Assembly: GCA_036785375.1 (NCBI GenBank)
Contig: JAWMAR010000531.1
Span: 1,116,001 to 1,180,000 of the forward strand
From: Leucoraja ocellata
Taxonomy: Eukaryota
Direction of reading: 5' to 3'
Length of the DNA stretch: 64,000 bases
In this document: positions 2,947 to 51,800 of the stretch, one piece after another
Layout: every line of letters starts with the position of its first letter
Position numbering within the stretch: the stretch's first letter is position 1
Position numbers: made by a program

Positions 2947-5900
2947 GTTGTTCTTACCATAATGCTCGCACGTAGAGTTACACTATGGATCAAGCAGAAA
3001 TAATATTCTGCCAAACTCCAACAAGACGAGTAGAACATCTCTATTACCCTATAATCTCCTTTTGTTTCCAAAACCTAAAGTTCCATCAATACGCCAAATT
3101 TTCATCAACATTGATAGCAAGATGCGGATTAGTATGCACTGGTAAGCTTCTTGAATCACTGAAGTATTCTGGCGATAGGACCCAAATGCTGCAATTAGAA
3201 AGGGATTTCCAAGAAATGAGCCCCCAACAATCGCAAAGCATAGCAATGTATTTCGCACTCAACATCGCCTGTGACTTGTCTAGCAAGAGAGGTGCTCCTA
3301 TGCACACCCTTTGCTCTTATCCTGATTCGGCACGGAGGTGTTGTCCGTGAGTCCTAGGCATAATTGTAATGTATTTTACGTATTGCCAAGAGAGTCGTGG
3401 CAATATATTGTTACTTGGGAGAGGATGAATATTTGGAATGAGAAAAGTATCAAAGAGCGGATTACTTTCTTCTGGATGAACTTGATTGTTGTTTTACCTG
3501 CATGAGGAATTGTCCAATGTATCCAGTTTATGTAAAGCGTTAATGTGGAGAGATCAGAGGATAACTGAGCAAAGGCAACTACACTGCGTACTGAAACATA
3601 GTCTGATGTCATCATTTCAACTAAAATATTGTTAATGCCAGTTAAATGCTGCATAATCATGCCACGGTATCACAGGAATGATTCCGCTGTTCCAACAGAG
3701 ATAGCATTTCCGAAGTACCGAAGAGTAGAACAATTTCGGAAACAATGTTTGGGACATTGATGCCTTTGCTTGACCTGTGTGCATGTCATCGATTTGCGGA
3801 CTTTAATGAGATGCGAGTATTAACTGTCCAGACACATCAGCAGAACAGCCCGGTCTCCTTTGATTAATTACCAGCGAAATCGTTAGTCCAAATATCAACA
3901 TTTTGAAAATGTAGACTGTTTTTTGACTGTATTTTCTTGTTCATCGCCGTTAGCACTGATTCGCCCGGTGTTACTACCCTGCAGGGATAATCCACAAAGC
4001 GAAAGGAGCGCTGCCGCGACAACTAGCGCGATTGGGTTGCGATATAAAATCTGCGTACATTAGATCAGGTATAAGGCAACGCTGGTTGCATGTAAATATA
4101 ATTTCATATGTCAGATGAAGTTGGACAGAATTAATATCATAGCAACGCAAGCACTTGCAGACATCGAGGTCTTTCATATATAAAACTCGCCAGCAGCTAC
4201 TAACATGTCGATTAAATATGTTTCTCAATTTATTTTCTCAAATAAGTCAATTGCCCGTGCTAAGCCAGTGAACATGTGTGCTGCTAGCAAGCATGATTTC
4301 CAGAATTACAGCGGTGTTGACGGTGCATTGACACCCAAATCTGCAAATTCGTAACTAATTTTGAAGACAATTGTTTCTTCACATTGCGCTTTGAAAGATT
4401 TCCTACACACCGTCTTCACCAGAATATTTACCAGTTTCAAATAAAATGTGGGTGTGCAACTAAAAGGGTGAAGATACATGTCGCGTACAGTAGTGCGAGA
4501 CCATGAGATCGGATTCTTCAGCCCCTGTTGGAATGTATCCCTTCATTTTTCAAGAGTGAATGAGCAGTCGCCAGAAATTATGATGAGGTTATTCGATTAA
4601 TTTATTTGAAGGCGCATGCGGTGCAACTGCACAGCAAAAGATTCAGAATAAATGAAAAGGAATAATTCAACACCTCCTTACAAACGAAACAAAGTATCTT
4701 ATGTGATTGAGTCTATATTAAATCGGCCCGAGGTACAAATGTACCGAGATAAATTGTACCGAGATATTCGACACCAAATCCTTATTTACCTTGGAAATAA
4801 TTTGACACAGGACGAATCTGGCAACTTCTGATTGGCGCAACACGCATTCTGATTTGACTGTTGAAGGATAGATAAGGAACTCGAGGTGACGCCTTGTCAC
4901 ACGGTTCATAAGCGACCTGGAGAGAAACACTGACGAGCCACTTCACATGGCGTTCTCCGCTCAATTCATTACAATGTCTCGCTGGATCTCTCTAGTCTAT
5001 GCGTTAGCATTTTCCGCAGCTTGTGAGTATTTACTTCAACCGACATGATATTTAATCTCGAGTACGATTAAACCTTTCTATCTGTGACAATTTTGCTGTT
5101 TCTCTGATATTAGTTAATATTCTACTTTTTTCTGGTTTGTTTTCCAGATATAAATGCGGAATTTGCACTAAATCAGCCGTCTTCAAAATCCACATCTCTG
5201 GGACAGAACGTGGAAATAGCCTGTACCCTGTCTGGCGGCAGTTTAAGTACTAGCACCGTTTACTGGTACCAGCAGATTCCAGCAACTGTTCCGCGGTTTC
5301 TGTTCTACACTTCGTCGGGCGGCAGCATTAATAGAGGCTCGGGAGTTTCTGACCGTTTCTCCGGATCAGTGTCAGGCAACACTATAACATTGACAATATC
5401 GAACGTGCAGTCGGGGGACGCTGCTGACTACTACTGTGCTGTGTGGAAAAGTGCTATAATCTTCGGCAAAGGAACGAGGCTGGGTATTGGCAGTAAGTAA
5501 AATACCTTCTATCTTTGCGTAAACACAAAAAGCTGGAGTAACGCAGCGAGACAGGCAGCATCTCTGGAGAGAGGGAAAGGGTTGTAGGAAGGAACTGTAG
5601 ATGCTGATAGACACAAGCTGGACTGACAGCATCGCTGATGTTAGGCGGGCTGTTTGTATTTTTTACACAAAATATCTTCAAATAAAAGGTATTTAATGAT
5701 GATATTTTTTAAGTTCCCGGACACGATCGAGTCTATTTTGGCAAATGAGTTGACAACAGCAATGAAAGGACGAAATGGCTGTCCGGTTGTGTTATTATTC
5801 TTAACTACTTTGCGGACGGCGAGCTAATAATTAAGAATTAGACCGAGAGTAAGGGAACGGGAAATAACTTTGGAGGGACAAGGAACTGCAGATGCTGGTT

Positions 5901-48841: not shown

Positions 48842-51800
48842 AGGAACTGCAGATGCTGGTTTCCAAAAAAAGACACAAAGCTCTGGGGTGACTCAGCGGG
48901 CAGGGCAGCATCTCTGGTGAACATGGATAGGTGACTTTCGGTTCGGGTCCCTTCTTCAAATCAGTTTTGTTCCATGCGACATCATATAACGCATTTTGCT
49001 GTTGTGCCATTAAGCGAAAGGAATAATATTCGCTATTCAACCTCGGAAATCTGAGCCGAATTATGACTTCAAAGAGAAGAGACTGGTCCAGAAAAAACAA
49101 ACATATACGTTTCAGCATTAATGTAAATCATATCAACGACTATTTAACATGCGAGAAATGGTAAATTTAACGTGGCTGCAACTCTAGTCTGTTCATTGAT
49201 GGTTAAAACGACAAAATATTCTTGTCGCTAAAATCCAACCATTAGTAACATTTCGGCATCTGGTCTTAATAAATGAACAGATGAATTAAGGGAAGGTATT
49301 TAAACAGAACTAAAGTTTTAAGCGCGTTTAGTGGAACTTTGGCAGCAATGAAAACCCGCAACTGGCTGTCGGGTAAAACGCTGGGTTTTTTAATTGTAGC
49401 TGGAGCCAACGAAAATAATACTCTGGAGATCAATTAAAAACACTGCCGAAATAATATATTTTACGCTGCTGCGCATATTCTGTCCCATTGCCATAAATAG
49501 CAGTTATTGTTTGGAGATCTCACTTCGAACGAATGAATCCATGTTATACCAACTGTATTTTTAACAAAGATAATGTTTTAACCGAAGCAGTTCTGCCAGC
49601 CCTACTAATCTGTGACTTTATTTTAAATAGATCCTCAGCCCCCCGCGGTGTCCGTGCTTGGACCTTCAGCGCAAGAATTGACGGGAAAGGGAACGGCCAC
49701 GCTGGTGTGTTTGGTGAACGGGTTTAATCCGGGCGCAGTGGAAATTGACTGGACCGTGGACGGCAGTGCGAGGAGTGATGGCGTTGAGACCAGCCGGATC
49801 CAACAGGAGGCGGACAACACGTTCAGTGCGAGCAGTTACCTGACTCTGCCAGCCACAGTGTGGAACGCACACGATCTTTACTCCTGTGTGGTTAAACACG
49901 AGTCGCAGGCAAGCCCGCTGCAGGCAAACATCGCCAGGTCCAGCTGTCTGTAAAACCTCTAGATTCCAACAAATCAAACTGACAAATATTGTTGCTCCGT
50001 CTTTCATTTGTCAAAAATTGATATAAAAATATTCTCTATTATCGACTTGCATTTGCGTTAAAATTGTCCTTTGTCTCGCTGTTTGTAAACGTCATTCAAT
50101 TGAAGCAACTCGTTGTGAATTGAAACTCCAATGTTATTCAATCTGTTAAATGCATTCCCAAATATTCATTAAAAGACAGTGGTCTAAAGATTACATTCAG
50201 GTTTGTTTTCTTTACCCACGTGACTAACATACAAATACAGCTCGCGACTAAAATCAATAATTCAATCTTAAGAGCGATACATGTGTTGGATTTTTATTTC
50301 TGATCAGAGAAAATCAAATGTATTTAATCAACCTTCATTATTTTACCTTATGGAAGAACCGATGATAAATGTGGCCGAACGTTATGTTATAAACTGGTGT
50401 GATGATAAATTGGTTCATAGAGCCGCGCGCGCGCACACGCACACACACGAACAAAATGGGGCGCTCATGTAGAAACGTATTCGAGGACAGACAGTAATCG
50501 TTATATGTGACCTTGCTAATACTATTCACTTAGCAATTCCAACCTATTTCATCTGTGAATTAACTGGGTGGGGCTGGTCGTGAGTGAGAGTAATATGGAA
50601 ACATAGAAACATAGAAAATAGGTGCAGGAATAGGCTGTTCGGCCCTTTGAGCATGCACCGCCATTCAATATGGTCATGGCTGATCATCCAACTCAGTATC
50701 CCATAAGGCCTTCTCTCCGTACCCCCTGATCCCTTTAGCCACAAGGGCCACATCTAACTCCCTCTTAAATATAGCCAATCAACTGGCCTCATTGCCTGGC
50801 AGAATATGGTCTTTCTGCCTTCATATAGGGCGCTAGCACACATGGAGTATCACATATAGTTTTACTTTCCTCGCCTAATAGAGGTACTGAAGTTCTTGGT
50901 TGGTTCCTGCTGAACTGATTAGCGGGATAAGTGCACGCTGCGTGGAACGACTGAGGAGTGTAGCCTACCTTCTCATCCACTCCCTACACAGTGGGGGCAA
51001 TTTTACAGAGGTCAATTAACCTAGAAACCCGCAATCTTTGGGATGTGGGAGGCAAACCACGGCACCACATGGGAAACGTGTAAACTCCTCACAGACAGCA
51101 TCGGAGCTCAGGATCGAACCCTGGTCTCTGGCGCTGTCGAGGCAGCTGCTCTACCAGGTGCGCCACTGTGCCGCCCCACAATATATAATATATCAGCCAC
51201 TGTAATATCTAAATCTCGTAGTGGTCTTGGCAGGAAAGGTGCAGACGTAATTTCTCCTGATTGATGAGTGCAAACTATAATTTTATATATTGCACCATAA
51301 TTTTATATATTTCTAGCAGGTCACCTCTCATCGTTAACGGTTACAGAGAAAACAACCCGAGCACTTCCATCTAGTATTGGGGCGAAGGAAATTATGGCAG
51401 TACCCGAAATGCAGCCTAGCAAAAGTCCTTTACCCCTGTCCCACCTAGGAAACCTGAACGGAAACCTCTGGAGACTTTGTACCCCACCCAAGGTTTCCGT
51501 GCGGTTCCCGGAGGTTCCCTGAGGTTTTTGTCAGTCTCCCTACCCGCTTCCACTACCTGCAACCTCCGGCAACCACCTGCAACTTCTGGGAACCGCACGG
51601 AAACCTTGGGTGGGGCGCAAAGTCTCCGGAGGTTTCCGTTCAGGTTTCCTAAGTGGGACAGGGGCATAAAGTAGCATCATGACTCGCCTGCCCTTATCCT
51701 GAATGCCCTGCTCAATGAAGCAAAACATAAAATATGCCTCCTCACCACTCTATATAGTAGTGTTGCCACTGAGGGAGATATAGACTTGGTTCCCAAAATT

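What the first reader, a model, noticed from the sequence alone, without database searches (positions are those of the whole stretch)
4974..49953. Compact tandem array of four intact, pre-rearranged (germline-joined VJ) Ig light-chain genes descended from one join
Seen: four L-VJ-C units 13-15 kb apart, same orientation, no disabling lesions, no RSS, and identical CDR3 length (AVWKSAII, AVWKDAVI, AVWKDAFI, AVWKDAVI). Known: cartilaginous fish have cluster-type Ig loci and germline-joined L chains attributed to RAG action in germ cells, so the phenomenon itself is not new. Inference: a single ancestral VJ join was amplified by local tandem duplication into an inherited, RAG-independent mini-repertoire. 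Such close spacing raises the question of how one-gene-per-cell expression is achieved without rearrangement.
Basis: partly seen in the sequence, partly recalled or inferred. Interest (0 to 1): 0.75.

Follow-up and report, generated by a model that had tools for sequence, protein, structure and literature searches.

The report
Four germline-joined skate lambda light-chain genes
The window holds four neighbouring, intact antibody light-chain genes of a skate whose V and J parts are already fused in the inherited DNA, a long-known peculiarity of cartilaginous-fish lambda chains, so this is an ordinary example of a known oddity.

Summary
Four same-strand L–VJ–C units start at 4974, 17951, 32312 and 47679 (periods 12,977, 14,361 and 15,367 bp). 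All have open frames, canonical splice sites, a 345-nt fused VJ exon and no RSS.

They are lambda (type II/NS3) light-chain genes of a skate. The C exon is 95% identical to an Amblyraja radiata "lambda-1-like" protein and 68–71% to sandbar-shark lambda. Two reviews state that all cartilaginous-fish lambda genes studied are germline-joined, so the kind is known.

- **Tandem duplication:** supported. Background divergence between whole units, spacers included, is about 1–4%.
- **One join:** supported, but the join is far older than this array. The same 8-residue CDR3 occurs in 26 of 34 database relatives of this V subfamily, including sharks and a ratfish.
- **Mosaic history:** a ~1.1-kb block (leader, VJ exon, 5' J–C intron) is 6–18% divergent and has a different site-pattern topology from the flanks.
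- **Diversity:** replacement changes concentrate in CDRs, and adjacent-base substitutions are over-represented in the VJ exon.

Expression and per-cell exclusion could not be tested.

The parts
4974..5022 (+). Unit 1 leader exon (MSRWISLVYALAFSAA, phase-1 donor T|GTGAGT)
   Evidence: leader of database protein P0001 has the same form
5148..5492 (+). Unit 1 fused VJ exon, 345 nt, CDR3 AVWKSAII + FGKGTRLGIG
   Evidence: Pfam V-set E=1.2e-15
6670..6992 (+). Unit 1 C-lambda exon with stop TAA; ATTAAA at 7207-7212
   Evidence: Pfam C1-set E=2.1e-25; 95% identical to P0001
17951..17999 (+). Unit 2 leader exon
18109..18453 (+). Unit 2 fused VJ exon, CDR3 AVWKDAVI
19842..20164 (+). Unit 2 C-lambda exon; ATTAAA at 20379-20384
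32312..32360 (+). Unit 3 leader exon
32486..32830 (+). Unit 3 fused VJ exon, CDR3 AVWKDAFI; V region 95% identical to Amblyraja radiata P0001 over 93 columns
34207..34529 (+). Unit 3 C-lambda exon; ATTAAA at 34744-34749
47679..47727 (+). Unit 4 leader exon
47853..48197 (+). Unit 4 fused VJ exon, CDR3 AVWKDAVI
49631..49953 (+). Unit 4 C-lambda exon; ATTAAA at 50168-50173
4674..4973 (+). Promoter-proximal 300 bp of unit 1 (equivalents 17651-17950, 32012-32311, 47379-47678). Mean column identity is 98% over the aligned 349 columns, which also include the leader exon. No canonical ATTTGCAT octamer.
17891..19041 (+). High-divergence block, given in unit 2 coordinates (about -60 to +1090 from the ATG): leader, leader intron, VJ exon and the first ~590 bp of the J-C intron. 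Divergence is 6-18% between (u1,u2) and (u3,u4), and is also raised for u3 against u4 in the intron part. Flanks are about 1-4% divergent.
980..52250 (+). Extent of the tandemly repeated segment. Spacer homology already starts upstream of unit 1 and ends about 2.3 kb after the unit 4 C exon.
26472..28345 (+). LINE-type reverse-transcriptase fragments in the unit 2 spacer (a similar one at 42071-43643 in the unit 3 spacer). Part of this stretch is missing in unit 1.

Best explanation
The window carries four tandem paralogues of the lambda (type II / NS3) immunoglobulin light-chain minicluster of a skate. The species is most likely Amblyraja radiata or a close relative (inference from identity values).

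Each unit is a self-contained transcription unit:
- a conserved promoter region;
- a leader exon;
- a 109-125-bp intron;
- one exon in which V is already fused in frame to J;
- a 1.18-1.43-kb intron;
- one C exon;
- an ATTAAA signal 215 nt after the stop.

Because V and J are one exon and no RSS is present, a light chain can be made by transcription and splicing alone, without RAG (shown from sequence).

The fused junction was inherited from an ancestor much older than this array. The array then grew by tandem duplication of a 13-15-kb segment. Its flanks have since been kept similar, or reshuffled, by gene conversion or unequal crossing-over, while the V block stayed diverse (inferred from the divergence profile and conflicting site patterns).

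The copies differ mainly by amino-acid replacements in the CDRs, which gives a small inherited repertoire. Further diversity would come from pairing with rearranged heavy chains and from somatic hypermutation. That last step comes from the literature and is not shown here.
For: **Gene structure and absence of RSS**
- 4 of 4 units are intact, with canonical splice sites and a 345-nt VJ exon.
- No RSS is found above the shuffle expectation, and none near the V, J or introns.
- No further V, J or C fragment is present.

**Family**
- The exons carry V-set and C1-set domains.
- The best solved-structure domain alignment of the C exon is to a C-lambda-type segment (my reading of the sequence) of chimeric chain 2rcj_C, at 73.6 bits.
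- Among the 120 listed hits of the C exon, the best is A. radiata 'immunoglobulin lambda-1 light chain-like' P0001 at 95%. The three sandbar-shark rows named lambda in GenBank (P0085, P0094, P0102) are 71, 71 and 68% identical.
- P0001 has the same exon junctions that I derived (...GFG-N-PQPPAVSV and ...SAA-Y-INA).

**Literature**
[quoted passage not shown] PMC4279169 says the same (passages).
- Nurse-shark NS3 is described as non-rearranging and germline-joined, and shark hypermutation as point plus tandem mutations (PMC2435157, passages).

**Tandem duplication**
- Self-blastn aligns whole units at 94-97%.
- Background divergence is 1-4% in 200-bp windows.

**Age of the join**
- The 8-residue CDR3 occurs in 26 of 34 database rows of the subfamily clade, and in the ratfish row P0123.

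**Selection**
- pN is 0.07-0.21 in CDRs against 0.006-0.051 in frameworks.
- pN/pS is 0.89-1.27 in CDRs against 0.20-0.50 in frameworks, for the five pairs that have synonymous changes.
- u1 and u2 differ at 6 sites, all replacements, 5 of them in CDRs.

**Mosaic history**
- In the VJ exon, the pattern (u1,u2)|(u3,u4) is seen at 18 of 41 variable sites and (u1,u4)|(u2,u3) at 0.
- In the 1.25 kb upstream the counts are 4 and 13 of 74.
Against: - No expression data could be examined, so function of each copy is inferred from intactness and constraint only.
- No canonical octamer ATTTGCAT lies within 1 kb upstream of any of the 4 leaders (4 matches in the window, all elsewhere). Lee et al. report an octamer for nurse-shark NS4 genes (PMC2193156).
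- The isotype label rests on automatic NCBI names plus three curated sandbar-shark lambda rows. No named kappa, sigma or sigma-2 reference was compared, and one of the 120 rows (P0090) is auto-named kappa-like at 70%.
- The assembly cannot be checked against reads.
- The V tree is a quick search on 95 columns, with 62 of 125 inner branches unresolved.
Confidence: 0.9

Rival explanations
1. Assembly artefact: the four units are haplotypes, or a smaller number of real copies, wrongly laid out in tandem.
For: High similarity of the units (94-97%) is the situation in which assemblers make such errors. No read data could be consulted.
Against: - Four copies cannot be two haplotypes.
- The copies differ by 1-4% in the flanks and by up to 9.6% in the VJ exon.
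- They differ by kilobase-scale indels of LINE fragments (for example 27172-28711, present in unit 2 and absent in unit 1) and in intron length (1177 to 1433 bp).
- No N run lies within 1-63684.
- Multi-copy lambda families on a single chromosome-sized contig are seen for other skates and a sawfish in the protein table.
Confidence: 0.03
2. Somatic origin: the joined configuration reflects rearranged B-cell DNA in the sequenced tissue rather than the germline.
For: None from the sequence. It can only be raised because the tissue source is unknown.
Against: - All four copies are joined, with the same junction length and frame and no junctional variation in length.
- No unjoined V or J and no RSS is present anywhere in the 64 kb.
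- Predicted proteins from other species carry the same junction.
- The literature reports lambda as germline-joined in all species studied.
Confidence: 0.02
3. Never-split relics: the fused VJ exon is the primordial, pre-RAG-transposon state of this lineage, not the product of a RAG-type joining in germ cells.
For: - The fused state with the same 8-residue CDR3 is shared as far out as a holocephalan (P0123).
- No split lambda gene is known in cartilaginous fish.
- There is therefore no split relative against which a joining footprint could be read.
- Lee et al. pose exactly this alternative (PMC2193156 abstract).
Against: - Lambda genes of bony vertebrates are split, and cartilaginous-fish lambda is regarded as their orthologue (recalled from Criscitiello and Flajnik 2007, which was not held). 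Parsimony therefore favours a secondary join.
- For nurse-shark NS4, joined genes nest among split ones and show hairpin-type junctions (PMC2193156).
- Several discrete CDR3 length classes (5, 9, 11 and 12 residues) in the sister V clade look like several independent joins or indels.
Confidence: 0.1
4. One or more of the four copies are silent or on the way to becoming pseudogenes, so the array is not a used repertoire.
For: - No expression evidence could be examined here.
- No canonical octamer was found.
Against: - 4 of 4 copies keep open frames and splice sites, and the conserved Cys, Trp and FGxG residues.
- Framework pN/pS is 0.20-0.50, and C exons differ by only 0.9-2.2%.
- The aligned 349 columns (300 bp of promoter-proximal sequence plus the leader exon) are 98% identical.
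Confidence: 0.08

Closest known systems
Lambda (type II / NS3) light-chain miniclusters of cartilaginous fishes (sandbar shark genomic lambda clone, Hohman et al. 1993; nurse-shark NS3)
   Same: - Same isotype by C-exon similarity (68-71% to sandbar-shark lambda).
- Same L / fused-VJ / C three-exon cluster.
- No RSS.
- All genes of the isotype are reported as germline-joined.
   Different: A different species and V subfamily. Here four copies are seen in one contiguous stretch with their spacers, which the phage-clone studies could not show. The Hohman paper itself was not held, so its details are recalled.
Amblyraja radiata predicted 'immunoglobulin lambda-1 light chain-like' proteins (P0001, P0012, P0013, P0023)
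   Same: - P0001 is 95% identical in C and 95% identical to unit 3 over the 93 V columns compared. It falls inside the clade of the four window V regions.
- P0012 has the identical CDR3-J string AVWKDAVI-FGKGTRLGIG.
   Different: No representative is identical to a window exon.
Type I (sigma-2) joined light-chain clusters of the little skate (Anderson et al. 1995)
   Same: All clusters are germline-joined. Differences concentrate in CDRs, with replacements exceeding neutral changes. [quoted passage not shown]
   Different: A different isotype, with at least 89 clusters known from clones and PCR without linkage information. Only the abstract and reference list are held.
Germline-joined NS4 (kappa / type III) genes of nurse shark (Lee et al. 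2000)
   Same: A fused VJ in an otherwise normal cluster, interpreted as RAG action in germ cells.
   Different: NS4 joins are recent, with split sister genes still present, so the junction can be reconstructed. Here the join is ancient and no split relative exists.

Membership tests
Immunoglobulin light chain, lambda (type II / NS3) isotype of cartilaginous fishes | One V-set domain and one C1-set domain, encoded as leader / V(J) / C exons | tested here: met
   Pfam V-set E=9.1e-18 to 2.2e-15 for 4 of 4 VJ exons. C1-set E=2.1e-25 for the unit 1 C exon. Exon models.
Immunoglobulin light chain, lambda (type II / NS3) isotype of cartilaginous fishes | C domain groups with named lambda chains rather than kappa, sigma or sigma-2 | tested here: inconclusive
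   The C exon is closest to skate, ray and shark rows auto-named lambda-1-like, and 68-71% identical to 3 sandbar-shark rows named lambda in GenBank. No curated kappa, sigma or sigma-2 reference was available for contrast. One row (P0090) is auto-named kappa-like.
Immunoglobulin light chain, lambda (type II / NS3) isotype of cartilaginous fishes | V and J fused in the germline, with no RSS (reported for every lambda gene studied) | tested here: met
   The VJ exon is one 345-nt exon in 4 of 4 units. The RSS scan is at or below the shuffle expectation. Literature.
Immunoglobulin light chain, lambda (type II / NS3) isotype of cartilaginous fishes | Conserved structural residues: the two V cysteines, the FR2 Trp, FGxG in J, and a C-terminal Cys for the heavy-light disulfide | tested here: met
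   ...EIAC..., WYQQ, DYYC, FGKG and ...RSSCL* are present in 4 of 4 units.
Immunoglobulin light chain, lambda (type II / NS3) isotype of cartilaginous fishes | Expressed in B cells and paired with heavy chains | not testable with these tools
   No transcript or read collection of the organism was available.
Minicluster (cluster-type) Ig locus organisation | Repeated cassettes, each with its own V, J and C | tested here: met
   Four cassettes with one V(J) and one C each, and no extra segments. Periods are 12,977, 14,361 and 15,367 bp.
Product of RAG-mediated joining in germ cells (as shown for nurse-shark NS4) | Split sister genes with RSS, from which the junction (trimming, P nucleotides) can be derived | tested here: not met
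   No split V or J is present in the window, and none is reported for lambda in any species. The mode of joining therefore cannot be reconstructed.
Processed (retrotransposed) gene copy | Absence of introns, with a poly-A tail and target-site duplications | tested here: not met
   Both introns are retained in 4 of 4 units (109-125 bp and 1177-1433 bp).

The most novel reading that the evidence does not exclude
The block of raised divergence starts near the presumed transcription start and runs about 1.1 kb through the leader intron, the VJ exon and the 5' part of the J-C intron.

Within the VJ exon, adjacent-base (tandem) substitutions are about 2.7 times more frequent than expected. There are 13 adjacent variable column pairs against 4.8 expected, and 4 of the 13 straddle codon boundaries.

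Both the position and the tandem signature resemble the target window and mutation spectrum of shark somatic hypermutation. The boldest reading not excluded is that an AID-type hypermutation process (or variants produced by it) has acted on these permanently assembled genes in the germ line. Inherited copy-to-copy diversity would then partly be a fossil of hypermutation.
Probability: 0.05. Interest if true: 0.8.

Novelty: new member of a known kind. Interest (0 to 1): 0.25.

Why it matters
As a phenomenon it adds nothing. Germline-joined lambda genes in sharks, skates and chimaeras have been described since the early 1990s.

Its modest value is as a contiguous, gap-free example in which four functional-looking joined genes can be compared together with their spacers.

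- It shows that the local array is young or homogenised (1-4% divergence).
- The V block is several-fold more divergent and has a different genealogy.
- Differences sit in the CDRs.

This is a clean substrate for two open questions. One is how a cell chooses among adjacent, ready-to-express light-chain genes. The other is how diversity is preserved against concerted evolution. The four copies carry enough CDR differences to be told apart in RNA-seq or single-cell data.

Tried and rejected
- **Extra or split segments.** tblastn of the three exon translations found nothing beyond the four units. The RSS scan was at chance level. The exact heptamer CACAGTG inside every C exon has no nonamer partner and lies in conserved coding sequence, so I set it aside as chance.
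- **Octamer.** ATTTGCAT has 4 matches in the window (5.17 expected), and none is near a leader.
- **Rfam.** There were 0 matches at gathering thresholds over the whole window.
- **Short, curated 'type II' V-J records.** The third homology search (unit 3 VJ exon, 'near' lengths) returned only one row, a donkey Ig-like protein at 60% identity. It was uninformative.
- **Papers not held.** Criscitiello and Flajnik 2007, Hohman et al. 1993, and Hsu and Criscitiello 2006 were not available. Anderson et al. 1995 is held only as abstract and references.
- **Constant germline mutational hot spot as the main cause of the divergent V block.** Rejected as the leading explanation. The pair u1-u2 shows no elevation in the block (2.0-4.8% against a similar background), and site patterns conflict between the block and the flanks. 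Both fit conversion or recombination better.
- **Codon-level selection as the sole cause of doublet substitutions.** Not supported. 9 adjacent pairs fall within codons and 4 across codon boundaries, which matches the 2:1 random expectation. The numbers are small.

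
Full report
**Observation**

The window is 64,000 bases with a single N run at 63685-63815, which I left alone.

Reading unit 1 directly and transferring the model by script gives the same intact structure in 4 of 4 units:
- Leader exon from ATG (4974, 17951, 32312, 47679) to a phase-1 donor T|GTGAGT.
- Leader intron of 125, 109, 125 and 125 bp.
- One 345-nt exon (5148-5492, 18109-18453, 32486-32830, 47853-48197). 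It runs from the end of the signal peptide through FR1-CDR3 straight into FGKGTRLGIG and ends at a phase-1 donor A|GTAAGT.
- J-C intron of 1177, 1388, 1376 and 1433 bp.
- C exon of 323 nt ending in TAA (6670-6992, 19842-20164, 34207-34529, 49631-49953).

An ATTAAA lies 215 nt after the stop in all four. ATG-to-ATG periods are 12,977, 14,361 and 15,367 bp.

**No RSS and no spare segments**

I scanned both strands for a CAC-anchored heptamer, a spacer of 11-13 or 22-24 nt, and a nonamer.
- At heptamer <=1 and nonamer <=2 mismatches there were 0 hits, against a mean of 0.9 in 20 shuffles.
- At nonamer <=3 mismatches there were 5 hits, against a mean of 5.25. All 5 lie in the spacers.
- Exact heptamers number 16. 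Four of them lie inside the four C exons at the same codons, without a nonamer.

tblastn with the unit 1 leader, VJ and C translations finds exactly four matches each. Nothing else scores better than E = 0.5. The VJ fusion is therefore real in this sequence, and there is no unjoined partner in the window.

**What the genes are**

Pfam assigns V-set to 4 of 4 VJ exons and C1-set to the unit 1 C exon. Against solved structures, the best single-domain alignment of the C exon (73.6 bits) is to what I read as the C-lambda-type part of a chimeric chain.

I never built or searched the joined L+VJ+C protein, so full-length identity to catalogued proteins is unknown.

The C exon (134 proteins at E <= 0.001 among 583 candidates, 120 listed) matches only cartilaginous-fish light chains:
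- Amblyraja radiata 'immunoglobulin lambda-1 light chain-like' P0001 at 95%.
- Other skate, sawfish, ray and shark rows at 66-83%.
- Three sandbar-shark rows named lambda in GenBank at 71, 71 and 68%.
- One row is auto-named kappa-like (P0090, 70%).
- One row has no name (P0034), and I did not use it further.

The unit 1 VJ exon finds the same family, with P0001 best at 85% (37 proteins among 2283 candidates). The P0001 sequence shows the exon junctions I derived.

I conclude that these are lambda (type II/NS3) genes of a skate. That it is Amblyraja radiata or a near relative is an inference from the identity values. The contig is not human.

**Tandem duplication and mosaic history**

Self-blastn aligns entire units, spacers included, at 94-97%.
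- The homology begins upstream of unit 1 (from about 980-1285), so another unit may lie beyond the left edge.
- It ends near 52,250. The remaining 11.7 kb holds no further unit.

The spacers are made of LINE-type reverse-transcriptase fragments. They differ between units by kilobase-scale indels.

A 200-bp sliding comparison shows a background of about 1-4% divergence upstream (-1260 to -60) and from about +1090 onward. A block from about -60 to +1090 covers the leader, leader intron, VJ exon and the first ~590 bp of the J-C intron.
- It is 6-15% divergent between (u1,u2) and (u3,u4).
- It is 8-18% divergent between u3 and u4 in its intron part.
- u1 against u2 stays flat at 2.0-4.8%.

Site patterns conflict between the block and the flanks.

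| Region | Variable sites | (u1,u2)\|(u3,u4) | (u1,u4)\|(u2,u3) |
|---|---|---|---|
| VJ exon | 41 | 18 | 0 |
| 1.25 kb upstream | 74 | 4 | 13 |

C exons differ by only 0.9-2.2%. At protein level they are 97-98% identical to one another but 95% to P0001. In contrast, the unit 3 V region is 95% identical to P0001 and only 90% to unit 4.

The simplest account is a tandemly duplicated segment whose flanks and C exons have been homogenised or exchanged by gene conversion or unequal crossing-over, while V blocks of older ancestry persist. This step is inference.

**Age of the join**

I aligned the four VJ translations with 125 database proteins. That is 126 held minus the unnamed P0034. I then built a quick V-region tree (95 columns, SH-aLRT only, 62 of 125 inner branches unresolved).
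- The four window genes and P0001 form a clade (support 90). Unit 3 is sister to P0001 (91), and units 1 and 2 are sisters (98).
- This clade sits inside a 38-row clade (94).

Among the 34 database rows of the 38-row clade, CDR3 length is distributed as follows:
- 8 residues in 26 rows.
- 9 residues in 7 rows.
- 6 residues in 1 row, a model flagged as low quality with an aberrant J.

The 8-residue rows come from three skates, a sawfish, stingrays, a manta, a sawshark, a sevengill shark and a catshark. The ratfish row P0123 (long branch, placement unsure) also has 8 residues followed by FGKGTRVGIG. A sister group of 9 shark rows has 9 residues in 9 of 9. A. radiata P0012 carries the identical string AVWKDAVI-FGKGTRLGIG.

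The shared CDR3 length in the window is therefore a family-wide trait. The join predates this array by a very long time.

One caveat applies. Most of these rows are gene predictions from assemblies (my reading of their names), so their germline-joined state is itself inferred.

**Diversity among the copies**

Nei-Gojobori counts on the VJ exon alone and the C exon alone give the following.

| Region | pN | pN/pS |
|---|---|---|
| CDRs | 0.070-0.206 | 0.89-1.27 |
| Frameworks | 0.006-0.051 | 0.20-0.50 |

The pN/pS ranges cover the five pairs that have synonymous changes. Units 1 and 2 differ at 6 sites, all replacements, 5 of them in CDRs. This parallels what Anderson et al. reported for the joined type I genes of the little skate (abstract only).

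Adjacent-base differences are over-represented in the VJ exon.
- In the four cross-group pairs, 47-53% of mismatched positions lie in runs of two or more. About 19-24% (5.6-7.9 positions) is expected when mismatches are re-dealt within CDR and framework partitions. P ranged from 0.0125 down to no simulation in 2000 reaching the observed value. The four pairs are not independent.
- Counted once over the four-sequence alignment, there are 13 adjacent variable column pairs against 4.8 expected (0 of 3000 shuffles reach 13). The C exon and 3' flank have 0, and the upstream region has 5 against 4.3 expected.
- Of the 13 pairs, 9 fall within a codon and 4 across a boundary, which is the random 2:1 proportion.

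Micro-conversion from other paralogues or a multi-nucleotide mutation process could each produce this pattern. Shark somatic hypermutation is known for tandem substitutions (PMC2435157 passages), which is why I keep a germline-hypermutation footprint as the boldest reading. The flat u1-u2 profile and the conflicting genealogies make it unlikely.

**How it most likely works**

Shown from sequence:
- Each unit can yield a complete light-chain mRNA by transcription and two splices, with no RAG step.
- The four predicted chains share frameworks and C but differ in all three CDRs.

Inferred:
- The aligned 349 columns, which are 300 bp before the ATG plus the leader exon, are 98% identical. I take the upstream part to be the promoter. 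No canonical octamer is present.
- All four copies are expressed in B cells.

From the literature, not tested here:
- Lambda genes of every cartilaginous fish studied are germline-joined (PMC5192425 and PMC4279169, passages).
- cDNAs of all-joined isotypes have been isolated in sandbar shark, skate and nurse shark (PMC2193156, passages).
- Such genes diversify further by hypermutation.

How a cell restricts itself to one of several adjacent ready-made genes is not answered in what I read.

**Novelty**

The kind is known. My searches found no paper describing this particular array.

A 2025 paper states that the genomic distribution of IgH/L miniclusters 'is not well known'. It also reports that clusters of each isotype lie together in chromosome-level assemblies (PMC12227049, passages). 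Its table S1 and other supplements are closed and may list comparable arrays.

In one search, all 8 A. radiata representatives report the same 38.2-Mb contig, and all Rhinoraja rows but one report the same 34.8-Mb contig. This fits one large lambda region per genome.

I therefore file this as a new member of a known kind, with low interest.

**Rivals**

- A mis-assembly is unlikely, given four distinct copies, kilobase indels, up to 9.6% V divergence and no gaps.
- A somatic origin is unlikely, given four identical-length junctions, no split partner and the same junction in other species.
- Whether the fused exon is a secondary RAG-type join or a never-split relic cannot be decided here. No split lambda relative exists to reconstruct the junction.
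- A processed retrocopy is excluded by the retained introns.

**Limits**

- No reads, transcripts or eukaryotic genome collection were available.
- Three key papers were not held, and one is held only as an abstract.
They would not bear on this question.

Noticed in passing
window 4947, 17924, 32285, 47652: A second in-frame ATG lies 27 nt upstream of the leader ATG in all four units (MAFSAQFIT- or MTFSAQFIT- extension). The database protein P0001 starts at the downstream ATG.
   Followed up: partly
window 6893, 20065, 34430, 49854: An exact RSS-type heptamer CACAGTG sits inside every C exon at the same codons (…PATVWN…). No nonamer lies at 12 or 23 nt, so I take it as chance in conserved coding sequence.
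   Followed up: yes
C exons 6670-6992, 19842-20164, 34207-34529, 49631-49953: Synonymous divergence of the C exons (pS 0.013-0.038) is lower than that of the VJ exon frameworks (0.085-0.119). It is also lower than J-C intron divergence (3.7-7.3%). This suggests homogenisation of C by conversion, or constraint beyond the protein.
   Followed up: partly
window 5600-5640 (unit 1 J-C intron) and 18040-18050 (unit 2 leader intron): Unit 1 lacks about 200-260 bp that the other three units have in the 5' part of the J-C intron (1177 against 1376-1433 bp). Unit 2 lacks 16 bp of the leader intron (109 against 125 bp).
   Followed up: no
window 48808-48839: A run of 32 G lies in the J-C intron of unit 4. 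The other units have 2-7 G at this position.
   Followed up: no
window 60542-62797 (+): An open 751-codon reading frame with a reverse-transcriptase domain (RVT_1, E=6.6e-32). It is the longest LINE-type ORF in the window, and shorter fragments of the same element recur in every spacer.
   Followed up: partly
window 36735-37301 (-): A 188-codon ORF in a stretch present only in the unit 3 spacer hits Pfam ALKBH8_N (PF09004, E=3.9e-11). It is probably part of a retroelement rather than a host gene.
   Followed up: no
window 62814-62967: An 81-bp unit is repeated 1.9 times at 97% identity, directly after the LINE ORF.
   Followed up: no
window 4800-4870 and equivalents: By eye in the promoter alignment: an invariant CTGATTGGCGCAAC (inverted CCAAT-like) and two octamer-like ATTTGAC motifs. 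These could stand in for the missing canonical octamer. They were not tested statistically.
   Followed up: no
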